Part shown: piece after piece, positions 12,178 through 36,150 of the stretch
Layout: each line of letters opens with the position of its first letter
Position numbering within the stretch: the stretch's first letter is position 1
IMG/VR virus record: IMGVR_UViG_3300019378_000951
Span: 152,391-216,390 of that record
DNA length: 64,000 bases
Reading direction: 5' to 3' (one strand)
Source of the DNA: a virus
Taxonomy: Duplodnaviria > Caudoviricetes
The notes under the pieces: generated by a model
What the model was told of the DNA's origin: nothing
The model's input: the letters and a program-made list of their open reading frames with translations, nothing else
The model's database searches: none
Made by a program: the position numbers and the translations under genes

Positions 12178-12837
12178 ATGATAGAATTTATGAAATTAAC
12201 AGGGGATGGAAAATGGATAGTTGTGGACATGCAAAAATTATATGAAACACAAAAAGTTATATTTAATAAATGGAGAGCTGAGTTACCAGATTCTCCAATT
12301 CAGAATATCAATAATTATACGCTTCATACAATTGAAGAATTATATGAATCTGAAAATGCACCTGGTCCAATGGAAAAACTTGAAGAAACAATAGATTCAT
12401 TTATGTATCTAATATCTTCAATATCAGCTTATGAACTAGATCCAAAGTTTAGCAAATCAGTAGAATTAGAAACATTATATTTAGATTCAGATACACTGTA
12501 CAGAGATGTACCAACGGTACAAGATATAATTAATAAATTAATGGATGTAAGAAGAATGTATCCAGAAAGAAAATGGCATAAACCATTTAATCCTGATGAG
12601 ATAGATTATTATATGAGAAGTAAATTAACTATTAAAACATATATGGAAGCTGCCATAATGATTATTAAAAGAATGTATATAAATTTTGACATGAATGACA
12701 CATATTTCATAAATGCTAAACTTAATAAGAAACAAGGATTTATTAAAACGCTTGAAGATGACGAATCAAAAAGTATTGAAGCGAATATTAAACCAGCTAA
12801 ATGTGATGATTTAGATGACTGGGATTTCATAGATTAA
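12178..12837 (+). CDS. All-alpha NTP pyrophosphatase (dimeric dUTPase/MazG-like)
   Basis: LYETQ, TIEELYE, KLEETIDSFMYL (ExxE/EExxD) and KWHK motifs; substrate not determinable. Confidence 0.55.
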   Translation: MIEFMKLTGDGKWIVVDMQKLYETQKVIFNKWRAELPDSPIQNINNYTLHTIEELYESENAPGPMEKLEETIDSFMYLISSISAYELDPKFSKSVELETLYLDSDTLYRDVPTVQDIINKLMDVRRMYPERKWHKPFNPDEIDYYMRSKLTIKTYMEAAIMIIKRMYINFDMNDTYFINAKLNKKQGFIKTLEDDESKSIEANIKPAKCDDLDDWDFID

Positions 12838-12926
12838 AAAACAAAAAAAGATATAAAAGTATATTATATTTGTGGTAATAAAGAATTAATAATAAAAAAT
12901 TTAATTAAATTTAGGAGGTAGTTATT

Positions 12927-13697: not shown

Positions 13698-13700
13698 TAA

Positions 13701-13743
13701 AATTAGAGAATGTGTATTTTCACATTCTCTAATTTATTTTTTT
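13701..13743 (+). terminator. Rho-independent terminator
   Basis: aattagagaatgtg / cacattctctaatt plus T-tract. Confidence 0.7.
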
Positions 13744-13764
13744 AATTTAAAGGAGGGTGTTTAT

Positions 13765-14352
13765 ATGAAAACTAAGATTATAATTTTATTATTAATACTA
13801 TGTTCAATTCAATTTGTTATAATTTCTAAATTTAATGTTAAAGAAATCTTAGATAGAACACATGTATCATATGACACTGAAGAAGAAGACGAATATTTAG
13901 AATACTTAGGATCGAGTCCAGAAACTTGGATGATTGATGATTTGTCTTATCCTGATGATATTATAAATGGAATTAACGTATGGTATAATAATGAAAAAGA
14001 TGAGTCAATTATTGAATGTAATACTTATCCAGCTGAATCACTTTTTAGTTCTATACTAATGTTAGATTCATTTGCAGATTGTTATATGTATTTAACCAAT
14101 CCTTATGAATCAGATCCAATTTTAGTTATGGAATTTGGAGTTAGTCAGTCAAAATTTAATTCATTAAATGAATTTGAACTAAATTTATTAAATTTAGCCG
14201 CTAAAGAATTAACAATATCACGTGGAGTTATTATGGATAATTATGATAAACTTAATATAGATAGATGTATGATAATAGTACGTTCTAAAAATGATAGAAC
14301 TAATGTTAAAGTATTTGTAGCTGATGGGTATAACCTATCAGATAACTCTTAA
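13765..14352 (+). CDS. Hypothetical exported or membrane-anchored protein
   Basis: Start MKTKIIILLLILCS at 13765 after SD aaggaggg; hydrophobic N-terminus. Confidence 0.7.
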   Translation: MKTKIIILLLILCSIQFVIISKFNVKEILDRTHVSYDTEEEDEYLEYLGSSPETWMIDDLSYPDDIINGINVWYNNEKDESIIECNTYPAESLFSSILMLDSFADCYMYLTNPYESDPILVMEFGVSQSKFNSLNEFELNLLNLAAKELTISRGVIMDNYDKLNIDRCMIIVRSKNDRTNVKVFVADGYNLSDNS

Positions 14353-14383
14353 TTGAGTTATCTTTTTTTTGTATGTCCAACCC

Positions 14384-14395
14384 AACAAACTTATA
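14384..14395 (+). promoter_or_regulatory. Putative late promoter AACA-N6-TA upstream of the giant-gene operon
   Basis: AACAaacttaTA. The same motif occurs at 39247, 41047, 43977, 44706, 56377, 62638 (+) and 48009, 55499 (-). It matches the AR9 non-virion RNAP late consensus. Confidence 0.65.
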
Positions 14396-14420
14396 TTACC
14401 TACAAAGGGAGGTGTCAGCA

Positions 14421-17400
14421 TTGAACGGTGACTCAATAAACGTTAACAGTAAATTTAATAAAGCAACAGTTACTAGAGCAATTAAATCTTTTGTATTGAA
14501 AAATGATATTAATAAAAAAGAAAATATTACTAAAAGTAAAATAAAATTCGAAAAACAAGAACTTCGACAATCATTCACTAATGATAAAGTAAATAATATA
14601 GAAATTCCATTGGAATCAAATGATATAATAAAAGATACAAAAAACTTAAATTCATTAAAAATAAATCAATCTAATATAAATCAAGATAAAAAATCAGAAA
14701 TTCCAATTAAAAGAAATATTAATGGTTTAAATATTAATATTATTAAAACTGATGCTATGGTTAAGTCTACTATTATAGTTACTAGGGTTTTAATGGGGCA
14801 TATTCATAATGTTACATTATTTAACCTAAATGCTACAACTAATGTTATTTCTAAATTAAATCAGTTTGACAGAGAAATCAATAATACTTTTTATAATAAT
14901 ACTCAAAATAATTTAACTGTAATTAACGATAATTTAATTAATTTAAATAAAGCCTTTAGTAAGCATATTAATTTAACATTAACTGATTTAAAAAGCAATA
15001 TATTTAAAGAAAAATTTCAATCATTAATATATGTAGAAAACATGTTTAAAATGGAATCATTAAAAGATAAAATTAGTGATATTGCAAAATCAATAACAAT
15101 GGGAATGAAATATGATATGATAAAATCTATGATAAAAGTAGGAGTTTCTTCCCCCATTTCAATGTTAATAACAGCTTCAATTAAACGTCTAATCCCTGAT
15201 GAAATAAAAGACGCATTTAAAAGCATAGATTCCATACCGACAATGGTAAGCACGGCTTTAGGGCTTGAATTTAATAAAATGAAAAATTCGGATAATCCAT
15301 TAATTGCATGGATTGGTAATAAACTTATGCCTGGCAGCGAAAATAGTAAAAAATTATCGTATAAAAAAGGTATAGTTAATTTTGATTTATTTACAAAAAA
15401 TGCAATTACTAAAAACATACCTACACTTCTTACGTATTGGTTACAAGCAGCTGATCCTGATAAATATAAAGATGGATTAGTGTATGATTATGAAACTGGT
15501 AGATTTGTAACAGGAAGTGGAGTTAGACAATATTTTGATCAATTTAAATATGATAAAAGAATAACTAATTTAAAAGAAGCAAATAAACGAACTAAACTTT
15601 TAAAAGAACAATCCAAAAATTTTGATAGATTTTCAATAAATGACATAAAATTTACAAAAAAATTAATAGATGAATATTCACATATTTATAATGGTAAAGA
15701 AGATCAAAATAAATATTTTGAAAATGTTGCATCTCAATTATCATATAATATTACAGAAAAATCTAAAAATAAATATAAATTAAAAAAAGGTGGAATTGCT
15801 AAAAAAGCTATTGATAAATTGAATAAAGGATTAAATGTAATAGACGCATATTTATTTGGAAGTATGGATATAGAGGATGCAGTAAAAAATTCCGCTGATA
15901 AGTTCTTTAAATTAAAAGATACATATCTGGTAAAACGTGGAAAAATTATAGCTAAATCAGCTTTTAATAAAATAATGGATAATATATTTTTACCATTAAT
16001 TGAAGGTGCTGCAAAACTTATAAAAAAAGGTAGAACTGTTATAGGAAACTTATTTAATAGAGCCATAGGCTTACTAGACGAACAGATATATCCAATCGTT
16101 GGTACACATTTAGGAAAAGGTTTTGTATCTGATATGATTGAAAAAGTTAAAAATTTTTTCCATGATAAATTTATACAACCTATTAAAGATAAATATAAAG
16201 AAATAGAAAAACACGCGTTGCAAAAATTTAGTAAATATGTCAAAAATGTAACTAAATGGGTAAATGAGGAAACTAATAAAATCCGAGCAAATAAAAATAT
16301 GGTAAATAACTTTAATAATGTTGTGCATAATACAGCGAAATTGGCCAATACAAGTCCGCAAAACCTTTCTTTTTTTGGAATAGGTCACTCTCAAAATCAA
16401 AATTTATATGCTCCTAAATCTGTTAATTTTAAAATCAATTTAGGACTAACAACACCTGAGAAAAATACAATTGTTACTTTACCAATAAAAAGATATAGCA
16501 AGGCTACTTTATTAGCTAAAGATTTTATTGATAGAACTATAACTGATATTAACAAATTTAGAAATATTCATAGTGCATATATAGAACTTATGACTAATAT
16601 TGCTAAATATAATTTTTCTGAAGAATTTACAGATACTAAATGGAAAGGATTAACTCCTGAAGAAGAACTTAAAAGACAAACAACTTTAGAAAATTTAAAA
16701 CTTATAATTGAAAGATATAAAGTTGTAAATGCATATGATGTTTCATTAATTAAATCTCATGCAGACGATATTTATTTATGGAATATGACTCAACTTATAA
16801 ATAATATTACGGTTAATAGATTTTTAGGTGCAACCGGTTTAGTACTTGGGAAATACGGATTAAAAGGCGCTATTTCTAAAGGACTTAAATTTATAGCAAA
16901 AGAAACCGCAAAAGGTATTGCAGTTGCTGGTATAAATACAGTTAGACACATTGTTGGAGTTGCAGGGTTTGCCGTAAAAACATTTAATTTCATTAAAACA
17001 TTTAAAACTAGAGCAACTTTAAAAATGTTAGAACTTGGAACTAAATACTTGTTACCAATGATGAATACCATTGTTAATAAATTTGGTCCAAGCGTAATAC
17101 ATTTTATAGGAAATATTACCTCAAAATTAATAAAAACTGCCGGTTCTTTAGCTAAATTTGCAAGTAAAGCTTTATTTAAGACCGTCAGTTTTACAGTAAA
17201 TGTTGCAGGTTCTTTAATTACTAAAATGACCGGTTTTGGATTTAACCTTATAAATAAAATTTTTCATAGAACTGGTTCTTTATTAAATAATTCGCCTAGA
17301 TATATTGGTCACGTTATAGGTGGATATCTAGATTACATAGAAGATCCAATTCAAATGGCAGAAATTAAGTCTAAAATAAAATATGACGATGATGAAGATG

Positions 17401-20036
17401 AAATAGAACAAAACGAAGAAACTGCAAAAAAATCAAAAAGAAATATATTTAATCGTATTAGCAAAAGATTAAATATTGTTAATAAATTTATTAATAAATT
17501 TATTGATAAAGCAATAGATACTTCGTTAGATGTTTTTACTGAAGGTTTTACAAATGTAATGTCGTTAATTTTAGGAGGGACTATTGGTACTTTCATAGCT
17601 GAAAAAGGCGGAAAAGCTACACAAGATGCTGAAAGCTTTGGTTATGAAAATATATTTATCACTGGTGGTACTGTTAACGGCGGTACAATGGGTAATATTG
17701 TAAATGGTGTTTTACAAGTTGATGTAGGTAATAGTGGAAGTTCAACAAGTAAAACTAAAAAGAAAGGCATTGTATCTAGATTATTTTCATTTATTGGAAA
17801 ACATAAAAAATCGGTTGCAGCAGGAACCGCTGCGTTAGCGACAATACACATAGGATCAAAAATAATTAAAGATGATAATAAAGAAAAACTTGATATGCAT
17901 AAATTAAAAAAATCAACAATCGAATTGGCAAATACAGGTAGTGGACAAACTACAGGTAATAAAAACAGTGAAAATAGTAATGATACGCAAAATAATAATA
18001 TCAATACCAATACTAGTAATAATAATACAACTCGAGAAGATAGTAAAATAATTGAAAATGATATTGACAAAACTAATACTGACTCGTATAAAAATGATTT
18101 ATTAAATGTAAACTTAGTTCATCATACAAATTCTAGTAACAATTTAGCGGGTTCAGATAATTATACCGTGGCTAATACATCCGCTAATAATATTAATACT
18201 GTTAATTTAAATAATACTAATCAATTACAACAGAAAAAAGATGCTAAACAGAAAAAAGATGCTAACAAAATACAACATTTACATAAATTAGATAAACAAG
18301 AGGGAACGACATCAATAGGTATAAATACAAAATTAGTAGAACCTAAAAAGAATACAATAGTTATTGAAGACATGCTTGCATCTTATCGTAACTATATAAT
18401 TAAAGATACTGTTGCAGAAAAAGAATTGTATAACTCAATGAATAAAAAAGAACGAAGCATGTATGATTCTCAAAAAAGTATAAGTCCTTTTGTAAATCCA
18501 TTATTCTCTAACAATGCCGTTAAATATGCTAATAAACGAAAAGGTATTTTAGGAACAATTGGTAATTTTCTTTTAAATGTAGGTAAAGGTATTATTGGTG
18601 CTATAAAAAATGGATTTAAATTTTTAAAAAATATAGTAGTTGGTGGATTTAAGCTAATAAAAAATATAGCATCAGGTATAGGTAAAGGTATAACAGTCGC
18701 TTCAAGATTCTTATCAAAAGCAGTTACCAATATATTTGGATTTATAAGTAAGCCATTCACTGGAATGCTAAACGGAATTTTAAACTTTTTTAATAAGAGT
18801 AAAAATATTGACGTAGATGGTAGTTTATGTGGTATTGATGAGACTAATATTTACATAGGTGGTAACAATGGTGGTAGCTCTAATGGCGGTACATCATCTG
18901 ACGGTAGTACATCTCCTGGAACTAGCAATGGTGGTAGTAATGGCGGTAGCAATGGTGGTGGCGGTGGTAATATAAATTCAAACATCTCAGTAACCGGATT
19001 TGCCTGGCCAGTTCCTGGTAGTTCAAAAATATCTTCAAAATTTGGTCCTAGAAATATAAGTGTACCAGGAGCTTCTAAAAATCATAAAGGTATAGATATA
19101 TCCGGTGGAGGTAAAAAAGATGCAAGCGGTTATCCTATAGTTGCATCAAAAGCAGGTACTGTAACATATGCGGGGCCTGGTAGCGGATATGGAAATTATA
19201 TAATAATTGATCATGGTAATGGATACACTACACGATATGCACATATGAATTCAAAATATATGTATGTTAAAAAAGGAGATAAAGTTACACAGGGACAACA
19301 TATAGCAAATATAGGTAATGAGGGTGTTAGTGGTGGACCACATCTTCATTTCGAAGTTAGAATAAACGGTACAGCATATGATCCGTCCCAATTTATAGCT
19401 TTTGGAGGAAACGCCGATAGAACTTTAAAAAATGAAAACGGAAGTTCTATACAATTAATAGTACCCCCACAAATGGGAAAAACACAAGAATCATACAATA
19501 ATTTACCTACTGTAATTGACCCTGAAGGTGATGATATTAGAAGAACTGAATTTAATAACGTAATGGAAAATGCATTTAATATTAAAAAAGAAATTGATAA
19601 GGATAGAACTAACGCTGAAAATGCCACACAACCGACTACAAATAGTAAATCTGTAAGTAACAAACCTAGCAATTCAATTATAAGTAATAATTTAAGTAGT
19701 ATGCCGTCAACTATTAATTCTGTAAGATCTAATATTACAGATCTTAACGAATATAAACAACAAAAATTAATTCGAAGTAAAAAAGCCGTAAGTAATATGA
19801 AATATCATAATATAAAGCATAATACCGATGAAAATAAATATAATGAAATTATAGAACTTTTACGAAAATTTAATGAATTAATGGAAATTTATGCAGATAA
19901 AGATAAAAAACTTAGTATAATTAATGATCAACCATCTCAATCTATACAAAATATACCATTAGATGAAAATGATATTCTAACTGATAAACTAAGAATGATA
20001 GATCCAAATTTAATTAATATATTACAGGGAATATAG
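14421..20036 (+). CDS. Giant tape-measure-like virion protein with C-terminal M23 peptidase domain
   Basis: FAWPVPG...HKGID...YGNYIIIDH...YAHM...GPHLHFEVR (HxxxD, HxH) after a Gly-rich linker. The TTG at 14421 follows SD gggaggtg (ORF track start 14373). Confidence 0.85.
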   Translation: MNGDSINVNSKFNKATVTRAIKSFVLKNDINKKENITKSKIKFEKQELRQSFTNDKVNNIEIPLESNDIIKDTKNLNSLKINQSNINQDKKSEIPIKRNINGLNINIIKTDAMVKSTIIVTRVLMGHIHNVTLFNLNATTNVISKLNQFDREINNTFYNNTQNNLTVINDNLINLNKAFSKHINLTLTDLKSNIFKEKFQSLIYVENMFKMESLKDKISDIAKSITMGMKYDMIKSMIKVGVSSPISMLITASIKRLIPDEIKDAFKSIDSIPTMVSTALGLEFNKMKNSDNPLIAWIGNKLMPGSENSKKLSYKKGIVNFDLFTKNAITKNIPTLLTYWLQAADPDKYKDGLVYDYETGRFVTGSGVRQYFDQFKYDKRITNLKEANKRTKLLKEQSKNFDRFSINDIKFTKKLIDEYSHIYNGKEDQNKYFENVASQLSYNITEKSKNKYKLKKGGIAKKAIDKLNKGLNVIDAYLFGSMDIEDAVKNSADKFFKLKDTYLVKRGKIIAKSAFNKIMDNIFLPLIEGAAKLIKKGRTVIGNLFNRAIGLLDEQIYPIVGTHLGKGFVSDMIEKVKNFFHDKFIQPIKDKYKEIEKHALQKFSKYVKNVTKWVNEETNKIRANKNMVNNFNNVVHNTAKLANTSPQNLSFFGIGHSQNQNLYAPKSVNFKINLGLTTPEKNTIVTLPIKRYSKATLLAKDFIDRTITDINKFRNIHSAYIELMTNIAKYNFSEEFTDTKWKGLTPEEELKRQTTLENLKLIIERYKVVNAYDVSLIKSHADDIYLWNMTQLINNITVNRFLGATGLVLGKYGLKGAISKGLKFIAKETAKGIAVAGINTVRHIVGVAGFAVKTFNFIKTFKTRATLKMLELGTKYLLPMMNTIVNKFGPSVIHFIGNITSKLIKTAGSLAKFASKALFKTVSFTVNVAGSLITKMTGFGFNLINKIFHRTGSLLNNSPRYIGHVIGGYLDYIEDPIQMAEIKSKIKYDDDEDEIEQNEETAKKSKRNIFNRISKRLNIVNKFINKFIDKAIDTSLDVFTEGFTNVMSLILGGTIGTFIAEKGGKATQDAESFGYENIFITGGTVNGGTMGNIVNGVLQVDVGNSGSSTSKTKKKGIVSRLFSFIGKHKKSVAAGTAALATIHIGSKIIKDDNKEKLDMHKLKKSTIELANTGSGQTTGNKNSENSNDTQNNNINTNTSNNNTTREDSKIIENDIDKTNTDSYKNDLLNVNLVHHTNSSNNLAGSDNYTVANTSANNINTVNLNNTNQLQQKKDAKQKKDANKIQHLHKLDKQEGTTSIGINTKLVEPKKNTIVIEDMLASYRNYIIKDTVAEKELYNSMNKKERSMYDSQKSISPFVNPLFSNNAVKYANKRKGILGTIGNFLLNVGKGIIGAIKNGFKFLKNIVVGGFKLIKNIASGIGKGITVASRFLSKAVTNIFGFISKPFTGMLNGILNFFNKSKNIDVDGSLCGIDETNIYIGGNNGGSSNGGTSSDGSTSPGTSNGGSNGGSNGGGGGNINSNISVTGFAWPVPGSSKISSKFGPRNISVPGASKNHKGIDISGGGKKDASGYPIVASKAGTVTYAGPGSGYGNYIIIDHGNGYTTRYAHMNSKYMYVKKGDKVTQGQHIANIGNEGVSGGPHLHFEVRINGTAYDPSQFIAFGGNADRTLKNENGSSIQLIVPPQMGKTQESYNNLPTVIDPEGDDIRRTEFNNVMENAFNIKKEIDKDRTNAENATQPTTNSKSVSNKPSNSIISNNLSSMPSTINSVRSNITDLNEYKQQKLIRSKKAVSNMKYHNIKHNTDENKYNEIIELLRKFNELMEIYADKDKKLSIINDQPSQSIQNIPLDENDILTDKLRMIDPNLINILQGI

Positions 20037-20051
20037 GAGGTGACAAATAAA

Positions 20052-24896: not shown

Positions 24897-24920
24897 TAGC
24901 CCCTCAGAAAGGAGAGCGCT

Positions 24921-27900: not shown

Positions 27901-30845
27901 AAACTGCGGGGGCTGAAATAAAAAATGTTGCTACTACTGCATTAGAAGAACTTAAAAACACAGGTTCAGATGTTTGGGAGGAACTTAAAAATACAGGATC
28001 TAAAATATGGACTAATGCTAAAAATATTTTCAGCACTATTGGAAATCAAATATTTGATTTTCTAGGTAAGGTGAGACAACAAGAATTTGATGTTTATATT
28101 GAAGGCGGTACATTAACGGGTATACATAACACTGTATATTATATTAAACCTAAAAAATCTGGATACCAATACATGAAAAATAAATTTAAACAAGAAGATG
28201 CAGATGACGCAGAAGATACAGATGAAAGTAATGAAAATTCTAAAGAAGCTAAAGAAACTATAACTCAACGTATTAAAAATAGATTTAAATTTATGGGTGA
28301 CATTATTAAATCTGTAGCTTCTACAGCATTAAATGCCGTTGTGAGTGGAGTTAAAAATTTAGCAAGCTCACTTTTAAGTACAATAGGCACTACTATATTA
28401 TCAGTAATCGGTCCTAAGTTAGGCAGTGTTTTGAAAAAATATGGTGGAAAAACTATAAATTGGGCTAGGAACACAATAGGTAAAGCTAAAAATAGGACTA
28501 AAAAAGGTAAAAAGAATTTAAGCAAAATTTTAGGAAAAGCCGGTAGTGCTGCATCAGTTGCAAATGGTTTATTATCTGATTCAACACCAGTATATGTTGT
28601 TGGTGGTATTCTGGACGGCGTTGGAAATGGAATTGTTGACGATGTAGTAGATGATGTAGTAGATGATATAATTGATGATGTTGATGATAAACTAAAAAAA
28701 GAAGCGGCTGAAGAAGTATCTGAAGAAGCTTTAGAAAAAATGGCTAGAGAAGCAGCTGAACACTCGGACGATGCAGGTAAAGGTCTAGGTAAAATATCTA
28801 AGTGGTTCGGTGATACTAAATTAGGAAAATTAATAGGCGGAACAGCTCTTGGAAAAAAAATAAAATCATTAACTTCAAAATCAGGTAAAAAAACAGGTTG
28901 GATTAGTAAATTAAAAAAATCGTTAGGTGTTTCCGATGATATTGCGGATGCTACTAAATCTAGTAAGTTTTTACAAAAATTACTTGGAATGACTACTAAA
29001 TCCGGTGGAAGTATAATGGATATTATGAAATCAATCGGTGCGGGTAAATTAGCGGGATTACTGGATGGATTTTCTTTATTAAAATCTGGTAAGCTTGTTA
29101 AAGCCGGGGGAAAATTATTACCAATAGTTGGTGATATAGCATCAATTATAGATATAGGTTCAGATATATGGAAAGCTTTTACATCTGAAACTTTTGGTAA
29201 AAAAGTAGGTTCAGCAATATCTGCAATATTAAAAGTAGGAGTAGAAGCTCTGGATATAGTTACTGGAGACACAGGATTAGTTTCAATAGTTGGTGGATTA
29301 TTAGCTGAATGGTTAACTGATAAAATCGCTAACGGTATTGATAAATTATTATCAAAATTTGGATTTGGCAAAAAGAAAAAAGATAAAGATAAGGAAGAAG
29401 AATCTAAAATTTCACAAAATAATGTTTCTATGAATCCAGATGAAAATTCAGCATTTATTGATACAACTAGTAACCCAGTAAATGCATTATCTCAAAATGC
29501 AGCACCGGACACTCAAATAGCTGTAAAAACTAGTAGTGCAAAAGAATATAGAGATTTCAAACAAGATGAAGCCGATAAAGAAGCAAAATTCCTTGCTAGA
29601 TTAAGTCAATCTGAACGTGATGAATACTTAAGCAATAAAAATGCATCAGTATATTCGTCAATATTAAGATCACAAGATGGTGGAAAAATGGTTCGTACAT
29701 TAATGAACACCGCTATATTGGCTAGTTCTATGAACGCTGGAATGACTGAAGGGGATATAATGGCGTTATTAAATAATTCATTAGTTAAAGCTATTAAAAC
29801 TAATGTTGTCGATGATGGTGTTCATGGTGACGGTATTTACGGAACTTTATGGGGTACTTATGGTAATAATGGCAATGACGGAGGAGGCGGCTCTGGTGGC
29901 GGAGGAGGCGGCTCTGACGGCGGAGGAGGCGGTGGAGGTGGAACTTCACCTACACCTGGCGAAGATGTTTCCAAAGAAACAAATGTAACTTCAGCTGTAT
30001 GGAAATTCTTTACAAGTAGAGGTTATTCGCCAGCAGCTACAGCTGGTATAATGGGGAACTTGCAACAAGAATCTGGAATGAACCCTTCTAGATACCAATC
30101 TGGTGGCGGACCTGGTCGTGGTATAGCTCAATGGACTGTAAGCGAAGAAAGATTTAAAGGATTAAAAGCACACGCGGCAAGTAAAGGAAAAGATTGGACT
30201 GATTTACAATCTCAATTAGAATGGTTAGAAATGGAATTAAATGGTAAAGACCCTACAACGTCGTCCATACTTAAAAAACAATTTGGCGGGTTAGAAAATT
30301 TTAAAAAGGCTACTGACTACAAATGGGCAGTTCAAGCTTTTGAGAAATCATTTGAAAGAGCAGGTAAACCGATGTGGGAAAAACGTTATAATTACGCACA
30401 ATCGTTTTATGATAAATTTTCATCATCTGCAGTGTCTATGGATAATACATCTAATTCAATTCTCAATTTATTAGGAAATATGCCAATTCCTGAAGGTGCT
30501 TTATCAACTAGCGATGCAACTTTAACTGGAAGATTTGCTACATCAATGGATACGTCACTTGCAAATGTAAATACAATATCTGAGAACATTAACGTTATAA
30601 ATAATACTCCATTAAATAATCCAGTAACATTAAAAAGTTCGCTAGACGAAGCAATATATCTTCTTAACAATATTAATAACAATATGGAGAAAAGTATTAA
30701 TAAAGAAGTAGTAGTAGAAAAAACTCAAAATGATACAAAATTAGATAACAGTAAAAATCCTTTTGTAGATTTTACTGATAATAATATAGATTTAAGTTTA
30801 AGAAGCTTCAGTATAGATATAAAGGCAATATTAGAGGGGATATAA
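24921..30845 (+). CDS. Giant tape-measure-like virion protein with C-terminal phage-tail lysozyme domain
   Basis: AATAGIMGNLQQESG...GRGIAQWT...QLEWL..EL...FER; 11-aa repeat EELKNTGSxxW; hydrophobic Gly-rich helices. Confidence 0.85.
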   Translation: MAVNLTPNNNFSKPKFVKNLVRTVSTMGKEIFSEYMPETVKIYDTNKDFAKKIKANNNMKISLKDITSNDVYKSGKQLIANAVEDLKTGNFYNEDRINKNMEAAASEMFGIDFSFLNSLDSDKDSINNDIKTETREINGNKVTVTTNRSTLVINDNMNAINMSFKSIAKVISKNQNIAFNNLNRNFNEMLLFKTETTLKFYNSMSNQFMQINNTINTFYRNAEKLTKIELGGLKESNTFNQLNILLGSSELLSLGYYIDKLKPTGFNKSALSPIMNGIKHALMFAMPPVVKDTLAETNKIIKNLPIMLNQKFGDMKNSDNSLSQLIGGTFHKDLNDGKSNYKIKNQAVGFDGITRRAIVNVIPSLISKIINAMRKGNDSDELVYDYQAGAYRTKGDIKKASEMQFQQQIRGTAGFESDIEKYKNKVMSNVAASLGVDKNSKKTRREIDKSIYKMLKNKELPIKGGKYSKNDKINEAIIETFLKMTPLEKVDFVNAVTRLTTPQEWLEQNESYHNIFDPLGYDDIKKKYDKDHREELYLYFKSKGMDTLADHVREGDAYNRSENKLSKLNPFYYIVEGLRAGNDLITKTLLSDPDDNIDKNSFIGKLNQKINYILSKPLSEHIQDLSKKFKQRIGKNPFIEEIKNAGLVTGIKGLFKEASQYIKGGNLNNNGSNKSKLVDKLKEDFIDPIIKIFKHAVTDPIKKQASQIGDFAKNVFSTITEPVKRVFNEYKTKYNTLKVQNTVANSYVSRAKTENELKTNENQASKEITDEFKKNEEKYTELDKSVSRGILDMVKSIRTDLVSPIDAFTTSIALVLKDGDAFVSKMNDFKFKLDTDHENLKAHVMDIDDQNSAENINNRLIEYQKLSTEIQDLIFNIESALNQAKSGEDDDEDDDDDTKNPTIEKVTGVLKKGITKGKNVLEKIKDKLTDQGSKTPIIDSFKKLGNKTVSTITGVIGDMMNNISRTSGAVSNILANVLSVSQDFFANTFPNLLKTAGAEIKNVATTALEELKNTGSDVWEELKNTGSKIWTNAKNIFSTIGNQIFDFLGKVRQQEFDVYIEGGTLTGIHNTVYYIKPKKSGYQYMKNKFKQEDADDAEDTDESNENSKEAKETITQRIKNRFKFMGDIIKSVASTALNAVVSGVKNLASSLLSTIGTTILSVIGPKLGSVLKKYGGKTINWARNTIGKAKNRTKKGKKNLSKILGKAGSAASVANGLLSDSTPVYVVGGILDGVGNGIVDDVVDDVVDDIIDDVDDKLKKEAAEEVSEEALEKMAREAAEHSDDAGKGLGKISKWFGDTKLGKLIGGTALGKKIKSLTSKSGKKTGWISKLKKSLGVSDDIADATKSSKFLQKLLGMTTKSGGSIMDIMKSIGAGKLAGLLDGFSLLKSGKLVKAGGKLLPIVGDIASIIDIGSDIWKAFTSETFGKKVGSAISAILKVGVEALDIVTGDTGLVSIVGGLLAEWLTDKIANGIDKLLSKFGFGKKKKDKDKEEESKISQNNVSMNPDENSAFIDTTSNPVNALSQNAAPDTQIAVKTSSAKEYRDFKQDEADKEAKFLARLSQSERDEYLSNKNASVYSSILRSQDGGKMVRTLMNTAILASSMNAGMTEGDIMALLNNSLVKAIKTNVVDDGVHGDGIYGTLWGTYGNNGNDGGGGSGGGGGGSDGGGGGGGGTSPTPGEDVSKETNVTSAVWKFFTSRGYSPAATAGIMGNLQQESGMNPSRYQSGGGPGRGIAQWTVSEERFKGLKAHAASKGKDWTDLQSQLEWLEMELNGKDPTTSSILKKQFGGLENFKKATDYKWAVQAFEKSFERAGKPMWEKRYNYAQSFYDKFSSSAVSMDNTSNSILNLLGNMPIPEGALSTSDATLTGRFATSMDTSLANVNTISENINVINNTPLNNPVTLKSSLDEAIYLLNNINNNMEKSINKEVVVEKTQNDTKLDNSKNPFVDFTDNNIDLSLRSFSIDIKAILEGI

Positions 30846-30888
30846 TATTTATCCCCTTTATTACTAAATGAAAGGGGGATAAAAATTT

Positions 30889-33800
30889 GTGTCATCATTA
30901 AGCTTCATTAAAAATAAAAATTATATCATAACCACATTACGAGCTACAACACAATTAAGCGATGAAGTTATAAAATCTGCAGCCCCAATAACTGCAGATA
31001 TTATATCTAAAAATACAAAATATGTAAATAATAAATTATCTAATATTGCTGGTCTTAATAAAAATAATGAATATTATAAAAGCTCTAAAGAATTAATTGA
31101 GGATAGTATTAATGCACTCAAAAATGATCCATATACAAAAGACCAATTTAACAAAACAATGACTAAAATTAAAAATTTTTCCACAAATAATAATTCTATT
31201 ATGGATTATATTACTGATACTGAAACAGCAACCGATATACGTAATATTCAAAATGAATCTAATGTATTTATGAAAAGTGATATAAAAACCACTTTATCAA
31301 TTATACATATCATTAATAATAATATATCAACAATACAAATTGAAAGACTATCTAAATCTGAAAACTACATATCTTATATTAACAAATTTAATCAAGATAA
31401 ATCAATTTATTATTATAATATGATAAATGAAGGTTTTAAAACTGCAATAGAGACTCTTACGAAATTAAAAGGCAGATTGTCGATAATATCAAAATTTGAA
31501 CAAGGTGTGTTTCAAGTAAATAATAAATATAATCAATTAAAAACTATTGTAAACACAATTGATATGTTTGGTAGTGATTATTATAAATCAAAAATGTTAG
31601 ATACTGAAGCTACTGAAGTTGCAAAAAACTTTATTACAGATAATGTACCTCCATTAATATCTAATATAGCAAATGTTATAAGTCAAATATTACCAGCTCC
31701 TATTAAAGAAGCATTGAATGAAACTGAATCATTATTAAAAATAACACCAGTTATATTAAATAAAAAATATGAATCAATGTTGGATAGTGATAATCATTTG
31801 CAATCAGCAATAGGTACTATGTTTCATAAAAAAATTAATTCTCAGTTATATGATAAAGGAAACATGAATTATGACGGTATAACTAGAAGGTCAATTTTAA
31901 ATGCAATACCTTCTGGCTTAGCTAAAATTTTAAATATTGTAAACGGTTTTAAAGACCCTTTAAAAGAAAAAGTTTTCGATTATGAGAAAAATATTTTTAT
32001 GACTGGAGAAACTATATATCAGCATGCCAAAGATGAATATGAATTTAATAGAAACAGATTAGATTCACCTATAAATGGATATAAAAATTTAGTAATATCT
32101 AAATTAAAAAAAGAAAAGCTTTTTAATACATCAATTAGTTCTGAAGTGGAAACTGCTATAGACAAAATTGTTAATGATAAATTGCTTCCATCAAAATTGG
32201 TTAAATTGTCTAACAACGATAAATTAAATGAAATAATGAGAGAATCATATATGGATTTATCTCCATATGAAAAAACTAGATTTATGCATTATGTATTTAA
32301 TATTGTAAAAACACCTGAAGAAATCATAGGTGAAAATGAATCATATCATAACGTGTTAGATACAATAGGGTTACAAGATATTATTCCTGAAAGAAAAATT
32401 GATTTTAAAAATGAATTATCTAATTATTTAATTGGTAAAAATTATAATGGTCTGGCTGCATATATAAATCAAAAACCCGATAGCGAAAATCCTTATGAGC
32501 CAGGAACAGCGTTGTATAGTGTTGTGTCAGGAATAAGATCTATTAACGTATTAATAACTGAATTACTTTTTGGAGTTCCTGACGGTAAAAAATCTGAATT
32601 GAGTATTATTGGTGAAAAAAGTTTAATGTTTGTAGGAAAGATTGCTGACAAGGCCGTAGATTCATATAGAACCTATATAAGCAGCGATAAGCGAGGGGCT
32701 AAATTATTAAAAGATATTAAAAACACAGGTATTGTTAAAGCAACTGCTGATTATTTAAAATTAGTATGGACAGAATTAAAAGAAAATGGCATTGGTAAAT
32801 GGACATATGAAACATTAATAACACCTATTGCTAATTTTGCTAAAACCCATGTTTTTGACAAGATGGCTGATGGGTATAAAACTTTAGTTGCAAATTTAAA
32901 ATCTAAAGCATCTAAACTTGACGATTCATCCCAACAAAATAAACATGTAATAAAGAAAAAAATAACACTAGAAAAAGTATATCAGATTAAAATTAAAAAA
33001 AGTATCAAAACGGTAGGAAAGTCTATTAAAGAAAATTTAGTAGATAATATTTTAAATCTTAATAATGACATAAAAAGTCTTAATCCTGCATTAAGTAATG
33101 AAGAATATGAAAAAAAATTACTAGATGTATTTGATACCAGTCTTTATATAAAATTAAAAGAAAAACAAAGAGAATATGATGAAAAACATAAGCATGATAA
33201 TAAAACTTTATTAACATTAACATCAGGTATAGTAAAAATTATGGGAATTGTAAAAAGTGTATATCGAGGTATAAAAGCTGCAAAAAATATGAGACCTGAT
33301 ATAGAAAAAAGAACTTTTTTTGAAAAAATGAAAGATATTATCGATCATGGTCGAGAAGAAAAAAGAAAACGTACTACAACTAAAACGCATATACTTAAAA
33401 ACGCAGCTACAATTGCATATAATATTGTAGACTTAAGATTGATTACTCCATTTAAAACTTTTATAAAAGTAATGAAAGAAAATAAAGAATCAATATGGAA
33501 TATTATAAAAAATACAATATCAATTGTTATTAATTTTTATACCAAATTTATGATTCCTATAAAGATGTTTAATTTTTATAAAAATCATGTATTAGGCGTG
33601 CAGTTATTCTTAGAAACTAAAAGATTTGCAATAAGTGTAAGAAAAAATATCATAAAAGAAGCGATAACTACTATTAAGGAAGCTGCTCGAATTAATAAGA
33701 ACTTTAAAAAAGTATATATGATAAATCCTGAATACGACCAAGTTGGTTTTGTTACTAAAAATTTTAATATAATTGGTGGATATTTAGACAATATATATGA

Positions 33801-36120
33801 AAAAATAGAAATCGATAAATACCTATCAGGATATGAAAAAGGTAAATTACATGCATTAAATGAAAAAGATGATGATGAAAAAGATACTAAAAAAGCTGAA
33901 ACAGTTATAGAAAAACACAAAAAAACAATAAAAGAGAGAATTAAGAAAAGACTTGATACAGTTACAGATTTTCTTAAAGATAAAGCATTAGGATCAGTGA
34001 AAAACGTATTTTCAGGAGTTGGAAGTTTTGCAAAAGGTATAACTGGAACATTATTTATGAAATTATTTAAAAATTCTAAAACAGAAGCAATTGTAAATAA
34101 AGTTAAAAATATATTTAAAGGTACAAAAACGGATATTAATGCTAGAATAGAACATGTATATGTAATTGGCGGTAATTTAACTGGAGGAGGAATAACTGGG
34201 ATATCGAATATCGGAACAGGTAAAATTGGAGACGCAGTTGAAAATAATACAAAAAATCTTGCCAATGGAAAAAAAGGAAAAATTAAATATATTGCCCTTA
34301 TAGGGGCTTACATTGCAGGAAGTGCATACGCCATGAAAACCTTAAATAAAAATGAAGATGAAAATGAAGATATTAAAGATGAAAAACAAGAGAGTATAGC
34401 TGAACCTGCGCCTACTAAACAACAAACAAACTCAAACGATCAATTAAATGAACAACCCACAGATCCGAATAAGTCTATTGAAATACCGTATAATAATACA
34501 ACATCAACTATCTCTTTAGAAAATAATGTAAATCTGAAATCTTCAATAATTGTTGACGAAGAAATTACTACAGATCAATTAAATCAATATATTGCTAATG
34601 GAAAAATAAAAATTCCTAATAATGAACAAGGAGCACAGTTAAAAGAAAAATCTGTTGCAAATGAAAATAGTATTAGCGCAACACAATTACAATTGAATTC
34701 ATCATTTTTTACATCATCAATGGTAAGTGTTAATAAATTAGTTAATATTGATGCTAGAGAGATGCGAAATTATTATGATGATAAGAGTTATAATGAAAAA
34801 ATCGAAAAAGAATTTACTAATAAATTAACTGCATCTGAACTCGAAGAATATAATGCAAATAAAAATGCAAGTTTACTTGCTGCAAAACTTCGTATGGGAG
34901 ATAAAAGCGTAATAGATACCTTAATGGGTAAAGAGTCATTAGGAGCATTAGCTAGAGGTGGATTATCACTAAAACAAGCTCAACGTTTAGTCGATGAGTA
35001 TGTTATGCAAAGTGGATTTACTAAAATAAAATATAATAATCATGCAGGTGATGGAGGTTATGCAAACTATGATTATTCAGATCCTAATGATGATGGTAAT
35101 TATGACGATGCACCCGGCGGTGGAATAGAACTAGGAGAAAACGACTTATTTGGTAGAGTATCTCAAAAATATGAAACCGGTACATCAGATTATACAGGGG
35201 CTGCAAAAATATCAAGTGGTAAAGGAGATTACGGTGGAGTATCCTATGGTATTCCTCAATTTTCTACTACGATGGGTTCAGCAAAATCATTTGCAAATTG
35301 GTTACAAACGACATATCCTAAATTTGGGCAACATCTTGCTGGATTATCCCCTGGAACAGAAGCATTTAATAGAGGATGGCGTAATGCATATAATACAGAC
35401 CCTCAAGGTTTTGCAAATGCACAAATTGCATATATAGTAAAAAACGAAACATTACCATTTATATCAAAAATATATAAAACAATGGGTGTAAATCTTAATT
35501 TAAATAGAGGTTTACAAGAATTAGCTCATTCAGTAGTAATTCAACATGGTTCAGGCGGAGGTCCAAGATTAATGAAAAATGCAGGAATTACTAGTGCTGA
35601 TGACCCTGCAACTATTATTAATAAATTATATGCCGAAAGAAGTAAAGTCCATATTTATTTTAAAAGTAGTAGTGGGGCCGTACAGAATAGTGTTAAGGAT
35701 CGTTTTGTAGATGAAAGAAGACATTGTTTAGAACTAGTAAATTCCCCAGCAATAGATTTACATGCATTAGTAAACGGAATGACCTCATCAATAAGTTCTG
35801 CTGACATGGATAAAACAAATTCAACAATGGAAAATTCAATTAATATGTTGAATAGCACACTTGAAAACGCAGTAGTTAATAAAGATAATATAAGAAATAT
35901 AATTAAAAATATTAAATCTATGCAAATATTGAAAGATGATCCGGAAGTTAAGCAATTAATAGAAATTATAGTTTTATTAGATAAAATGTCTAATAATTCA
36001 TCTAAATTAGCAAATGATGATAATATTATATTGAAATACTCTAACGAAATTTCAAATAATTCTAACAAAAAAATATTAAAAAATGTATTTATAGGAGGTT
36101 ATGAGGGGAAATTAGCTTAA
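30889..36120 (+). CDS. Giant tape-measure-like virion protein with C-terminal lysozyme-like (VgrG3-C-like) muramidase domain
   Basis: GRVSQKYETG...ISSGKGDYGGVSYGIPQF...VIQHG...LYAER...RF.DE; N-terminal motifs shared with the three upstream genes. Confidence 0.8.
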   Translation: MSSLSFIKNKNYIITTLRATTQLSDEVIKSAAPITADIISKNTKYVNNKLSNIAGLNKNNEYYKSSKELIEDSINALKNDPYTKDQFNKTMTKIKNFSTNNNSIMDYITDTETATDIRNIQNESNVFMKSDIKTTLSIIHIINNNISTIQIERLSKSENYISYINKFNQDKSIYYYNMINEGFKTAIETLTKLKGRLSIISKFEQGVFQVNNKYNQLKTIVNTIDMFGSDYYKSKMLDTEATEVAKNFITDNVPPLISNIANVISQILPAPIKEALNETESLLKITPVILNKKYESMLDSDNHLQSAIGTMFHKKINSQLYDKGNMNYDGITRRSILNAIPSGLAKILNIVNGFKDPLKEKVFDYEKNIFMTGETIYQHAKDEYEFNRNRLDSPINGYKNLVISKLKKEKLFNTSISSEVETAIDKIVNDKLLPSKLVKLSNNDKLNEIMRESYMDLSPYEKTRFMHYVFNIVKTPEEIIGENESYHNVLDTIGLQDIIPERKIDFKNELSNYLIGKNYNGLAAYINQKPDSENPYEPGTALYSVVSGIRSINVLITELLFGVPDGKKSELSIIGEKSLMFVGKIADKAVDSYRTYISSDKRGAKLLKDIKNTGIVKATADYLKLVWTELKENGIGKWTYETLITPIANFAKTHVFDKMADGYKTLVANLKSKASKLDDSSQQNKHVIKKKITLEKVYQIKIKKSIKTVGKSIKENLVDNILNLNNDIKSLNPALSNEEYEKKLLDVFDTSLYIKLKEKQREYDEKHKHDNKTLLTLTSGIVKIMGIVKSVYRGIKAAKNMRPDIEKRTFFEKMKDIIDHGREEKRKRTTTKTHILKNAATIAYNIVDLRLITPFKTFIKVMKENKESIWNIIKNTISIVINFYTKFMIPIKMFNFYKNHVLGVQLFLETKRFAISVRKNIIKEAITTIKEAARINKNFKKVYMINPEYDQVGFVTKNFNIIGGYLDNIYEKIEIDKYLSGYEKGKLHALNEKDDDEKDTKKAETVIEKHKKTIKERIKKRLDTVTDFLKDKALGSVKNVFSGVGSFAKGITGTLFMKLFKNSKTEAIVNKVKNIFKGTKTDINARIEHVYVIGGNLTGGGITGISNIGTGKIGDAVENNTKNLANGKKGKIKYIALIGAYIAGSAYAMKTLNKNEDENEDIKDEKQESIAEPAPTKQQTNSNDQLNEQPTDPNKSIEIPYNNTTSTISLENNVNLKSSIIVDEEITTDQLNQYIANGKIKIPNNEQGAQLKEKSVANENSISATQLQLNSSFFTSSMVSVNKLVNIDAREMRNYYDDKSYNEKIEKEFTNKLTASELEEYNANKNASLLAAKLRMGDKSVIDTLMGKESLGALARGGLSLKQAQRLVDEYVMQSGFTKIKYNNHAGDGGYANYDYSDPNDDGNYDDAPGGGIELGENDLFGRVSQKYETGTSDYTGAAKISSGKGDYGGVSYGIPQFSTTMGSAKSFANWLQTTYPKFGQHLAGLSPGTEAFNRGWRNAYNTDPQGFANAQIAYIVKNETLPFISKIYKTMGVNLNLNRGLQELAHSVVIQHGSGGGPRLMKNAGITSADDPATIINKLYAERSKVHIYFKSSSGAVQNSVKDRFVDERRHCLELVNSPAIDLHALVNGMTSSISSADMDKTNSTMENSINMLNSTLENAVVNKDNIRNIIKNIKSMQILKDDPEVKQLIEIIVLLDKMSNNSSKLANDDNIILKYSNEISNNSNKKILKNVFIGGYEGKLA

Positions 36121-36150
36121 TATTTCCCCTTAACTTCAGAAAGGGGAAAT

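What the first reader, a model, noticed from the sequence alone, without database searches (positions are those of the whole stretch)
14421..36120. Four giant paralogues on one scaffold, each with a different cell-wall hydrolase domain
Seen: shared motifs in the same order. First FD/YD..[TS]..[AS]I...IP..L plus [LK][VI][YF]DY; then IGGYLD/KGHLD/EGGTLT/IGGYLD followed by an acidic DDDE patch; then a second [YF][IV].GG.[LV]; hydrophobic helices; an Asn-rich spacer; a Gly-rich linker. The catalytic domain follows: M23 (about 19000), NlpC/P60 (about 24050), tail lysozyme (about 30000) or VgrG3-C-like muramidase (about 35150). Similar ends: ILQGI, QVEGL, ILEGI, YEGKLA. This gives two peptidases and two glycosidases with motif residues apparently intact. 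Inference: a hetero-oligomeric tape-measure/ejection complex cutting several peptidoglycan bonds, built like polymorphic toxins with swappable C-domains.
Basis: partly seen in the sequence, partly recalled or inferred. Interest (0 to 1): 0.78.

Follow-up and report, generated by a model that had tools for sequence, protein, structure and literature searches.

The report
Four tandem tape-measure/tail-lysin paralogues
An uncultured giant phage related to Bacillus phage AR9 has four old, diverged copies in a row of the giant tail protein its relatives encode once, and each copy carries a different cell-wall-cutting enzyme; this is the largest such set I found here, and it raises the untested idea that one phage tail holds a mixed bundle of these proteins.

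Summary
Four adjacent + strand genes (14421-20036, 20052-24896, 24921-30845, 30889-36120; 1614-1974 aa) are true paralogues. Pairwise BLASTP of the non-catalytic parts gives 1e-4 to 2e-48. Each carries one hydrolase with its motifs kept: M23, NlpC/P60, phage tail lysozyme (PF18013) and VgrG3-C-like muramidase (PF21277).

The window is the end of a 216-kb AR9/PBS1-like jumbo myophage record. The locus is syntenic with AR9 g200-g209, where one gene, g204 ('tail tape measure protein', VgrG3-C-like domain), stands in place of the four. All 51 related IMG/VR loci, and 10 of 10 near-complete relatives searched whole, have one copy.

A tree puts the four copies and three orthologues from a sister 96-kb contig in one clade, so the duplications are old and maintained. 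Across the family the enzyme slot is freely swapped, and close relatives string two or three of these same enzymes on one chain.

The hetero-oligomer reading is not tested. The four lengths are unequal, which argues against a simple in-register bundle.

Published Staphylococcus jumbo phages have two such copies. Earlier notes of this scan report two- and three-copy cases on other DNA. I rate this a new variant of a known kind.

The parts
14340..14363 (+). Terminator-like hairpin with a T8 run just upstream of the four-gene block
   Evidence: 9-pair stem, T-run; sequence read.
14421..20036 (+). Paralogue 1 (1871 aa from TTG 14421; 1887 aa if ATG 14373): N-terminal family domain, helical middle, Asn-rich spacer, Gly-rich linker, M23 endopeptidase, C-terminal tail ending ILQGI
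   Evidence: The sister orthologue P0013 is 54% identical overall.
14820..15572 (+). N-terminal family domain of paralogue 1
19080..19385 (+). Peptidase M23 domain; HxxxD (HKGID), YAH and HLH motifs present
   Evidence: 1e-29; alignment to PDB 9GY1, 3e-20.
20052..24896 (+). Paralogue 2 (1614 aa from TTG 20052; 1618 aa if GTG 20040): same layout, NlpC/P60 domain, ends QVEGL
20472..21239 (+). N-terminal family domain of paralogue 2
24117..24311 (+). NlpC/P60 domain; Cys (DCSSF) and His (HVGLY) aligned to those of E. coli Spr/MepS; the third residue is Asp where Spr has His
   Evidence: 1.4e-8.
24885..24905 (+). Hairpin spanning the stop codon of gene 2 (GAGGGGC...GCCCCTC), followed by the ribosome-binding site of gene 3
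   Evidence: -17.4 kcal/mol, z -2.7.
24921..30845 (+). Paralogue 3 (1974 aa): same layout, phage tail lysozyme domain, ends ILEGI; its middle part also hits a tape-measure PHROG
   Evidence: phrog_26249 1.7e-57; phrog_1272 'tail length tape measure protein' 1e-12 over aa 938-1516.
25428..26150 (+). N-terminal family domain of paralogue 3; predicted as long helices plus one hairpin
   Evidence: pLDDT 74.7, pTM 0.31.
29991..30419 (+). Phage_lysozyme2 (PF18013) domain; GNLQQESG aligned to the phi29 gp13 N-terminal lysozyme-like domain
   Evidence: 3e-33; PDB 3CSR 1e-6, 9M7N 1e-7.
30834..30857 (+). Hairpin spanning the stop codon of gene 3; its 3' arm can also pair with the ribosome-binding site of gene 4
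30889..36120 (+). Paralogue 4 (1743 aa): same layout, VgrG3-C-like muramidase; orthologue of AR9 g204 by position and by domain; ends GGYEGKLA
31336..32073 (+). N-terminal family domain of paralogue 4 (the most diverged, long branch)
35152..35718 (+). T6SS_VgrG3-like_C domain; KYE...GDYGG aligned to V. cholerae VgrG3 C-domain
   Evidence: 4e-33; PDB 4NOO 5e-13.
36103..36130 (+). Hairpin spanning the stop codon of gene 4; its 3' arm is complementary to the next ribosome-binding site
   Evidence: -19.3 kcal/mol, z -3.2.
36151..38694 (+). Conserved downstream partner gene: homologue of AR9 g205 'virion protein', BpSp gp264 and DC4_00258. It marks the locus in all relatives.

Best explanation
The four genes are old, lineage-specific tandem duplicates of the single giant 'tape-measure / tail-lysin' gene of AR9/PBS1-like jumbo myophages (AR9 g204 family, PHROG 26249).

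Each copy has kept the parts that define the family:
- a helical N-terminal domain of about 300 residues with the FDG-TRRAI-VIPS...YDY motif;
- a long helical middle;
- a Gly-rich linker;
- a conserved C-terminal tail ending in a short [IL]xxG-x peptide.

Each copy holds one different peptidoglycan hydrolase in the enzyme slot before that tail.

Inferred mechanism: the proteins are made together late in infection from one tightly packed gene block and are built into the tail, most likely in the tube lumen, docked by their shared ends. On sheath contraction they are expelled into the thick wall of a low-GC host. There two glycan-cutting and two peptide-cutting enzymes open a local hole for the tube.

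Close relatives reach the same end by stringing two or three of these enzymes on one chain. This lineage spread them over four chains.

Shown: paralogy, family membership, synteny, kept catalytic motifs, conservation in a sister phage, and single copy in relatives. Inferred: location in the virion, co-assembly, and bond specificities.
For: Paralogy.

Family and synteny: tblastn finds only AR9/PBS1/BpSp-type phages. AR9 has one gene, g204 (1925 aa, 'tail tape measure protein'), between g202/g203 and g205/RusA. The window has homologues of g200, g202, g205, g208 and g209 in the same order around the four genes. AR9 g204 and BpSp gp263 carry PF21277, like paralogue 4.

Copy number: one copy in each of 51 IMG/VR loci and in 10 of 10 records that are at least 92% complete. 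There are four in this genome and nowhere else in it.

Age and maintenance: a sister contig of 96,232 bp appears to carry orthologues of copies 1, 2 and 3 with the same enzymes. That these lie on one contig is inferred from equal contig length. The N-terminal domain and the enzyme domains are among the best-kept windows (66-81% and 73-79% identity), and spacers fall to 23-37%. The four copies plus three orthologues form one clade next to the AR9-like clade (SH-aLRT 96).

Catalytic motifs.

Swappable slot, and the same enzymes fused in relatives: (P0007 NlpC + lysozyme2; P0008 NlpC + VgrG3C; P0009 VgrG3C + NlpC + M23).

Shared C-terminal docking peptide family-wide.

Tape-measure character: PHROG tape-measure hit in the non-enzymatic middle of copy 3; an all-helical, non-globular model of the N-terminal domain; the only other ORFs over 1200 aa in the record are the tail sheath, an Ig-repeat protein and a homologue of AR9 virion protein g279.
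Against: No direct evidence that any family member sits in the tail lumen or sets tail length. The AR9 label is an annotation, and I could not read the AR9 virion proteome paper. The shallow virion proteomes of BpSp (23 proteins) and DC4 (15 proteins) do not list their homologues.

Most family members are 3000-5300 aa. That is longer than a helical ruler for a tail of a few hundred nm would need (about 0.15 nm per residue, background knowledge), so much of the protein is not ruler.

The four copies differ in length (1871, 1614, 1974, 1743 aa), and each length is kept in the sister phage. That is awkward for a parallel in-register bundle.

Known tape measures are reported at 3-6 copies per tail (PMC8570332). 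Four different chains do not fit a trimer evenly.

No strong transmembrane helix is predicted.

The record is only 84% complete, so another tape-measure candidate could lie in the missing part.
Confidence: 0.62

Rival explanations
1. Only one copy is the working tape measure. Paralogue 4, the positional and domain orthologue of AR9 g204, is the likeliest. The other three are accessory virion lysins or ejection proteins that reuse the family's docking ends but sit elsewhere, for example at the baseplate or in the head as ejected proteins, or are present in fewer copies.
For: Paralogue 4 is next to the g205 homologue and has the AR9 enzyme type. The lengths are unequal, and each is conserved in the sister phage for copies 1-3. 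Hairpins at the ends of genes 2-4 could grade expression along the block.
Against: All four keep the N-terminal domain and the C-terminal peptide. Paralogue 4 is the most diverged in the N-terminal domain (branch 1.39). The PHROG tape-measure match is in copy 3, not copy 4.
Confidence: 0.2
2. The four are alternative tape measures. Each virion takes a homotrimer or a random mix, so a burst yields a mixed population of particles armed against different wall chemistries. This would be host-range bet-hedging.
For: All four have the same docking ends. Four kinds do not divide evenly into a three-chain bundle. The enzyme slot varies with lineage across the family, as if tracking host walls.
Against: Different lengths would give tails of different length if each acted alone as the ruler. 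The gene block is tight, with 3-43 nt gaps and no sign of separate regulation. The same three enzyme assignments seen in the sister phage argue for a fixed set.
Confidence: 0.1
3. The family is not a tape measure or tail-lumen protein at all. It would be a giant soluble or membrane-anchored lysis or superinfection protein, and the 'tape measure' label in AR9 would be a misannotation carried forward.
For: No experimental localisation was found. PBS1 records call it 'lysis domain protein'. Typical members of 3000-5300 aa look too long to be pure rulers.
Against: No other tape-measure candidate was found among the large ORFs (over 700 aa) of a sheath-encoding genome. The gene is always followed by a gene annotated as a virion protein in AR9. 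The architecture is long and helical with an enzyme near the C-terminus, as in known lytic tape measures (T5 pb2, phiIPLA35, cited in PMC4870245 and PMC8570332). There is a PHROG tape-measure hit.
Confidence: 0.08

Closest known systems
Bacillus phage AR9 g204 / PBS1 gene 95 / BpSp gp263 (single giant 'tail tape measure' or 'lysis domain' protein, PHROG 26249)
   Same: Same N-terminal domain, 26-29% identity over about 570 residues. Same collinear layout and terminal [IL]xxG-x end. Same genomic slot between the g202-like and g205-like/RusA genes. Same VgrG3-C-like enzyme as paralogue 4.
   Different: One gene there, four here. Three of the four carry other enzymes. AR9 has no hairpin over the stop codon.
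Staphylococcus jumbo phages MarsHill/Madawaska/Machias, DC4 (UFVDC4_00260 + 00259) and PALS_2: 'two potential tape measure proteins' (bioRxiv 10.1101/2020.12.14.422802; PMC10638138)
   Same: Two adjacent proteins of about 2000 aa that I confirmed as paralogues (three collinear matches, 6e-10 to 2e-40). One has M23 and the other PF18013 + PF00877. They are followed by the same g205-type gene.
   Different: Two copies, not four. One copy carries two enzymes. Their N-terminal domain is too diverged for my family profile and gives only a weak match to paralogue 3 (1e-7 in a tiny database). The papers do not discuss paralogy or co-assembly.
Single-chain multi-enzyme relatives in metagenomes (P0009: VgrG3C + NlpC/P60 + M23; L008: M23 + VgrG3C; P0007: lysozyme2 + NlpC/P60; P0008: VgrG3C + NlpC/P60)
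   Same: Same family and the sister clade in the tree. Their M23, lysozyme2 and VgrG3C domains are the nearest family matches to those of paralogues 1, 3 and 4, at 38-49% identity.
   Different: Enzymes in series on one chain, against one enzyme per chain on four chains.
Tape-measure proteins with built-in muralytic domains (T5 pb2, phiIPLA35 TMP, phage G gp183 with glucosaminidase + M23; cited in PMC4870245 and PMC8570332)
   Same: A long helical protein with a wall-cutting enzyme towards the C-terminus, thought to leave the tail first and open the wall.
   Different: These are single genes. I found no detectable sequence relation outside the enzyme domains. The function is shown experimentally for some of them and for none of this family.
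phi29 gp13 tail-tip protein (PDB 3CSQ/3CSR) and V. cholerae VgrG3 C-domain (PDB 4NOO)
   Same: Direct sequence relatives of the enzyme domains of paralogues 3 and 4. Both are enzymes carried on a puncturing device.
   Different: Only the enzyme domains are related. The carriers are unrelated.

Membership tests
AR9 g204-type giant tail protein family (PHROG 26249) | N-terminal helical domain with the FDG-TRRAI-VIPS...YDY motif about 170-490 residues from the start | tested here: met
   All four hit my family profile at 1e-80 to 1e-89, but that profile was built partly from them. Independent support: phrog_26249 hits for copies 2, 3 and 4; copy 1 is linked through copy 2 (4e-27); invariant motif columns.
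AR9 g204-type giant tail protein family (PHROG 26249) | Genomic slot: after g200/g202-like genes, before the g205-like virion protein and RusA | tested here: met
AR9 g204-type giant tail protein family (PHROG 26249) | Peptidoglycan hydrolase(s) after a Gly-rich linker, followed by a C-terminal tail ending [IL][A/x]xG-x | tested here: met
   Copy 4 has a looser ending (GGYEGKLA).
Tail tape measure protein (functional class) | Lies in the tail-tube lumen and sets tail length | not testable with these tools
   No isolate and no virion data. The published proteomes of relatives do not list the homologues.
Tail tape measure protein (functional class) | Very long, mostly alpha-helical, among the longest genes of a tailed phage, with no other candidate in the genome | tested here: inconclusive
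   The N-terminal domain is modelled as long helices. Copy 3's middle hits a tape-measure PHROG. The other ORFs over 1200 aa are the sheath, an Ig-repeat protein and an AR9 g279-like virion protein. However, the record is 84% complete, and only one 281-residue part was modelled.
Tail tape measure protein (functional class) | Upstream tail-assembly chaperone pair with a programmed frameshift | not tested
   The upstream ORFs (12178-14352) have no informative matches. I did not search for frameshift sites.
Peptidase M23 (PF01551) | Zinc ligands and catalytic residues: HxxxD, and H...HxH | tested here: met
   HKGID, YAH and HLH aligned to solved M23 enzymes.
NlpC/P60 (PF00877) | Cys-His-polar catalytic triad | tested here: inconclusive
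   Cys and His align with those of Spr/MepS. The third position is Asp where Spr has His. Whether Asp serves there is not shown.
Phage tail lysozyme (PF18013; phi29 gp13 N-domain type) | Conserved Glu in the GNxQxES motif | tested here: met
   GNLQQESG aligned to GNMQSES of phi29 gp13. That this Glu is the catalytic one is from my background knowledge.
VgrG3-like C-terminal muramidase (PF21277) | Acidic pair in KYE...GDYGG | tested here: met
   Both residues are kept in the alignment to 4NOO, with a 3-residue insertion between them. Their identification as the catalytic Glu/Asp pair is from memory.
Polymorphic toxin systems | Variable C-terminal toxin domain on a conserved delivery part, with a cognate immunity gene next to it | tested here: not met
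   The slot is variable across the family. But the domain is internal and followed by a conserved tail, and the gaps of 3-43 nt leave no room for immunity genes. This is an analogy only.

The most novel reading that the evidence does not exclude
All four paralogues are built into every tail as one heteromeric lumen bundle that delivers four different wall-cutting activities at once. Their ratio would be set by the hairpins over the stop codons, whose 3' arms can also mask the next gene's ribosome-binding site. That would be a heteromeric tape measure, which as far as I know has not been shown for any phage, plus a dedicated translational device to balance its subunits.
Probability: 0.25. Interest if true: 0.75.

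Novelty: new variant of a known kind. Interest (0 to 1): 0.5.

Why it matters
Tape-measure proteins are usually described as one gene forming a homo-oligomer. Here a phage lineage has kept four diverged copies, each with its own enzyme and its own conserved length, through enough evolution for orthologues to fall to 54-65% identity.

If they share one tail, the lumen holds a mixed bundle. Tail-length control and genome delivery would then be more elaborate than in current models.

Comparison with relatives that fuse the same enzymes on one chain gives a natural experiment on how virion-borne wall-cutting enzymes are packaged.

The cultured two-copy Staphylococcus jumbo phages offer a way to test this. 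The four enzyme domains are also candidate lysins against low-GC Gram-positive bacteria.

Tried and rejected
I could not fetch the sister 96,232-bp contig or the contigs of P0006-P0012. That three sister orthologues share one contig is inferred only from equal contig length.
- Two scans of JGI metagenome contigs (P0003 alone, then an alignment with its orthologues) found no relatives. A single-protein scan of IMG/VR also found none.
- Megablast of gene 1 against phage records gave no match.
- My N-terminal profile did not hit the Staphylococcus DC4 pair. Their link rests on synteny and a weak BLASTP match.
- The profile of the N-terminal domain against PDB sequences gave nothing significant. 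Foldseek of its model against PDB gave nothing below E = 1. The model has pTM 0.31, so fold matches would mean little anyway.
- A hydropathy scan gave no confident transmembrane helix.
- Sigma-70-type promoter matches are no more frequent than in shuffles. The AR9 late-promoter-like motif AACA-N6-TA occurs at 14384-14395, but the related search pattern (AACA-N6-TAR) is not enriched in the window. I make no promoter claim.
- The fifth giant ORF (56932-62610) was considered as a fifth paralogue and rejected. It matches the AR9 virion protein g279 only.
- Gene fission of one longer ancestor was rejected, because each copy has its own complete N-terminal domain and C-terminal end.
- An assembly artefact was rejected: the copies are only 20-30% identical, and three have separate orthologues elsewhere.
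Full report
**What is there**

Four long + strand ORFs fill 14373-36120 with gaps of only 3, 24, 43 and 30 nt. Translations are P0001-P0004.

Pfam finds exactly one family in each:

| Protein | Domain | Residues | E-value |
|---|---|---|---|
| P0001 | Peptidase_M23 | 1570-1671 | 1e-29 |
| P0002 | NlpC/P60 | 1360-1424 | 1.4e-8 |
| P0003 | Phage_lysozyme2 | 1691-1833 | 3e-33 |
| P0004 | T6SS_VgrG3-like_C | 1422-1610 | 4e-33 |

The likely true starts are:
- TTG 14421 for gene 1. It has a strong ribosome-binding site at 14404-14414 and agrees with the sister orthologue's N-terminus.
- TTG 20052 for gene 2.

**Are they paralogues?**

Yes. Composition-adjusted BLASTP of whole proteins gives collinear matches outside the enzyme domains:
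- P1-P2: 4e-27 (aa 119-430) and 4e-15 (aa 908-1257)
- P3-P4: 2e-48 (aa 16-605) and 8e-9 (the stretch before the enzyme)
- P1-P3: 2e-10
- P1-P4: 4e-11
- P2-P3: 2e-13
- P2-P4: 1e-4

Copies 2, 3 and 4 also hit one independent profile, phrog_26249.

The 'hydrophobic helices' are only mildly hydrophobic.

**What genome is this?**

The window is the last 64 kb of a 216,390-bp IMG/VR virus record, estimated 84% complete. The four copies are the only ones in it. GC is about 27%.

Neighbours include a helicase, a split ATP-dependent protease, a prohead protease, RusA and homing endonucleases. The record also encodes a tail sheath.

tblastn of the N-terminal 660 residues of copy 3 finds only the AR9/PBS1/BpSp group of Bacillus jumbo phages. 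Earlier notes of this scan also call this genome AR9-like.

**Synteny**

In AR9 a single gene, g204 (1925 aa, annotated 'tail tape measure protein'), lies between g200-g203 and g205 (virion protein), g208 (RusA) and g209. The window has homologues of g200, g202, g205, g208 and g209 in the same order around the four genes.

AR9 g204 and BpSp gp263 carry the VgrG3-like domain. Copy 4 is therefore the orthologue by position and by enzyme, and copies 1-3 are additions.

**Is four unusual?**

A pattern scan of IMG/VR with a family alignment gave 51 loci, mostly on contigs of 200-265 kb. A profile of the N-terminal domain finds exactly one giant ORF in each. Lengths run from about 1,900 to over 3,900 aa within the loci, and up to 4,421 aa in whole records. 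The same profile finds four in the window.

Whole-record searches of ten relatives that are at least 92% complete gave one copy each.

The family is large. There are 2,190 clusters at 50% identity with E up to 1e-3. Most members are 3,000-5,300 aa, and the domain always lies at about residues 170-490.

**Age and maintenance**

Protein searches found orthologues of copy 1 (P0013, M23), copy 2 (P0019, NlpC/P60) and copy 3 (P0015/P0006, lysozyme2). Each is recorded on a contig of 96,232 bp, most likely the same contig.

Overall identities are 54%, 56% and 65%. The N-terminal domain (66-81%) and the enzyme domains (73-79%) are among the best-kept windows. The Asn-rich and other spacers fall to 23-37%. 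The terminal peptides are nearly unchanged.

A maximum-likelihood tree of the N-terminal domain puts the four copies and the three orthologues in one clade (SH-aLRT 96) beside the AR9-like clade. Copies 1 and 2 are sisters (98), and each copy pairs with its orthologue (99-100).

The duplications therefore followed the split from the AR9 lineage and preceded the split from the sister phage. This is a quick tree, and copy 4 sits on a long branch.

**The enzyme slot**

In the last 1,100 residues of 23 complete homologues, Pfam finds:

| Pfam family | Homologues |
|---|---|
| lysozyme2 | 8 |
| C39-like peptidase | 7 |
| M23 | 6 |
| NlpC/P60 | 4 |
| VgrG3-C | 3 |
| VanY | 2 |
| Phage_lysozyme, ELLD, CHAP, SLT, Amidase_5 | 1 each |

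Two further families in that tally, Apolipoprotein and Peptidase_C39, bring the total to 13. Apolipoprotein is not a hydrolase.

Relatives in the sister clade carry several of the same enzymes on one chain:
- P0009: VgrG3C + NlpC/P60 + M23
- L008: M23 + VgrG3C
- P0007: lysozyme2 + NlpC/P60
- P0008: VgrG3C + NlpC/P60

The M23, lysozyme2 and VgrG3C domains of copies 1, 3 and 4 find their best family matches there, at 38-49% identity. The NlpC/P60 domain of copy 2 does not.

This fits an ancestor with several enzymes whose duplicates each kept one. Domain order differs between relatives, however, so shuffling by recombination is not excluded.

**Catalytic motifs**

- M23: HKGID, YAH and HLH align with solved enzymes.
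- NlpC/P60: the Cys and His align with those of Spr/MepS. The third residue is Asp where Spr has His.
- Lysozyme2: GNLQQESG aligns with phi29 gp13.
- VgrG3-like: KYE and GDYGG align with V. cholerae VgrG3. Calling these the catalytic Glu/Asp pair rests on my memory of that literature.

**Tape measure or not?**

For:
- the AR9 annotation;
- a tape-measure PHROG match in the non-enzymatic middle of copy 3;
- an all-helical, non-globular model of the N-terminal domain (pLDDT 74.7, pTM 0.31);
- no other candidate among the large ORFs of the record. The other ORFs over 1200 aa are the sheath, an Ig-repeat protein and an AR9 g279-like virion protein;
- a C-terminal peptide conserved family-wide, as expected of a docking end.

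Against:
- I found no experimental localisation;
- the BpSp and DC4 virion proteomes do not list the homologues, though both are shallow;
- most family members look too long to be pure rulers.

**Co-assembly**

This is not tested. All four share both ends, so they could dock at the same sites.

Their lengths differ, at 1871, 1614, 1974 and 1743 aa. Each length is kept in the sister phage for copies 1-3 (1859, 1651, 2035 aa). Tape measures are described as 3-6 copies per tail (PMC8570332). A strict in-register four-part bundle therefore looks unlikely. A looser mixed bundle, one ruler plus three passengers, or mixed particle populations all remain possible.

**What is known**

Lytic tape measures are well known: T5 pb2, phiIPLA35 and phage G gp183, as cited in PMC4870245 and PMC8570332.

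For Staphylococcus jumbo phages, 'two potential tape measure proteins' are published (10.1101/2020.12.14.422802; PMC10638138). I confirmed that DC4_00260 (M23) and DC4_00259 (lysozyme2 + NlpC/P60) are paralogues of each other, and that they sit before the same g205-type gene.

Earlier notes of this scan report tandem tape-measure paralogues with different hydrolases on other DNA: two copies in Staphylococcus jumbo and T4-like phages, and three in phage-G-like and other phages. Apart from the Staphylococcus pair, I did not test those.

**A feature not in the finding**

The pattern GAGGGG-N5-20-CCCCT occurs three times on the + strand of the window, with none expected by chance. Each occurrence spans the stop codon of gene 2, 3 or 4. 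The 5' arm is made of the Glu-Gly codons of the terminal motif.

The hairpins are stable, at -17 to -19 kcal/mol for the gene 2 and gene 4 junctions; the gene 3/4 junction's best fold (-15.9 kcal/mol) instead pairs the 3' arm with the next ribosome-binding site. AR9 has no such hairpin. These may tune the ratio of the gene products, but this is a lead only.

**Verdict**

This is a four-copy, one-enzyme-per-chain variant of a known kind of giant tail protein, maintained by selection in a small lineage. Whether the copies assemble together is unresolved.

Noticed in passing
window 24885-24905, 30834-30857, 36103-36130: G/C-rich hairpins span the stop codons of paralogues 2, 3 and 4. They are the only three + strand matches to GAGGGG-N5-20-CCCCT in 64 kb, with none expected by chance. 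The 5' arm is the Glu-Gly codons of the terminal protein motif. The 3' arm is also complementary to the next gene's ribosome-binding site, which could give translational coupling or attenuation. There is no hairpin at junction 1/2 or after AR9 g204.
   Followed up: partly
window 5292-6221 and 7342-8211 (ORF 6249-7058 between): An ATP-dependent protease gene appears split. The two ORFs hit consecutive halves of phrog_4871 (profile positions 268-509 and 509-758), with an ORF-bearing insertion of about 1.1 kb between them. This is probably another intron or homing element in this intron-rich genome.
   Followed up: no
window 36151-38694 and 38883-39236: The homologue of AR9 g205 (virion protein, joined from three pieces in AR9) is also in at least two pieces here. 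The second ORF matches AR9's last exon, so an intron probably lies at about 38.7-38.9 kb.
   Followed up: partly
window 56932-62610: A fifth giant ORF (1892 aa) has no Pfam or PHROG hit. Its middle (aa 874-1297) matches AR9 virion protein g279, in a block of Ig/PKD-repeat virion proteins. It is not a paralogue of the four.
   Followed up: partly
window 13700-13735 and 14340-14363: There are two terminator-like hairpins just upstream of the four-gene block. One has a 15-pair stem and is readable on both strands; the other has a 9-pair stem with a T8 run. An AR9-late-promoter-like AACA-N6-TA lies at 14384-14395, but the related search pattern is not enriched in the window.
   Followed up: partly
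loci L007-L057; proteins P0020-P0169: The N-terminal domain defines a very large family of giant proteins: 2,190 clusters at 50% identity, mostly 3,000-5,300 aa, single copy per jumbo-phage genome where checked. Yersinia phage phiR1-37 g083 is a member. A C39-like cysteine peptidase is one of the commonest domains in the enzyme slot, in 7 of 23 homologues.
   Followed up: partly
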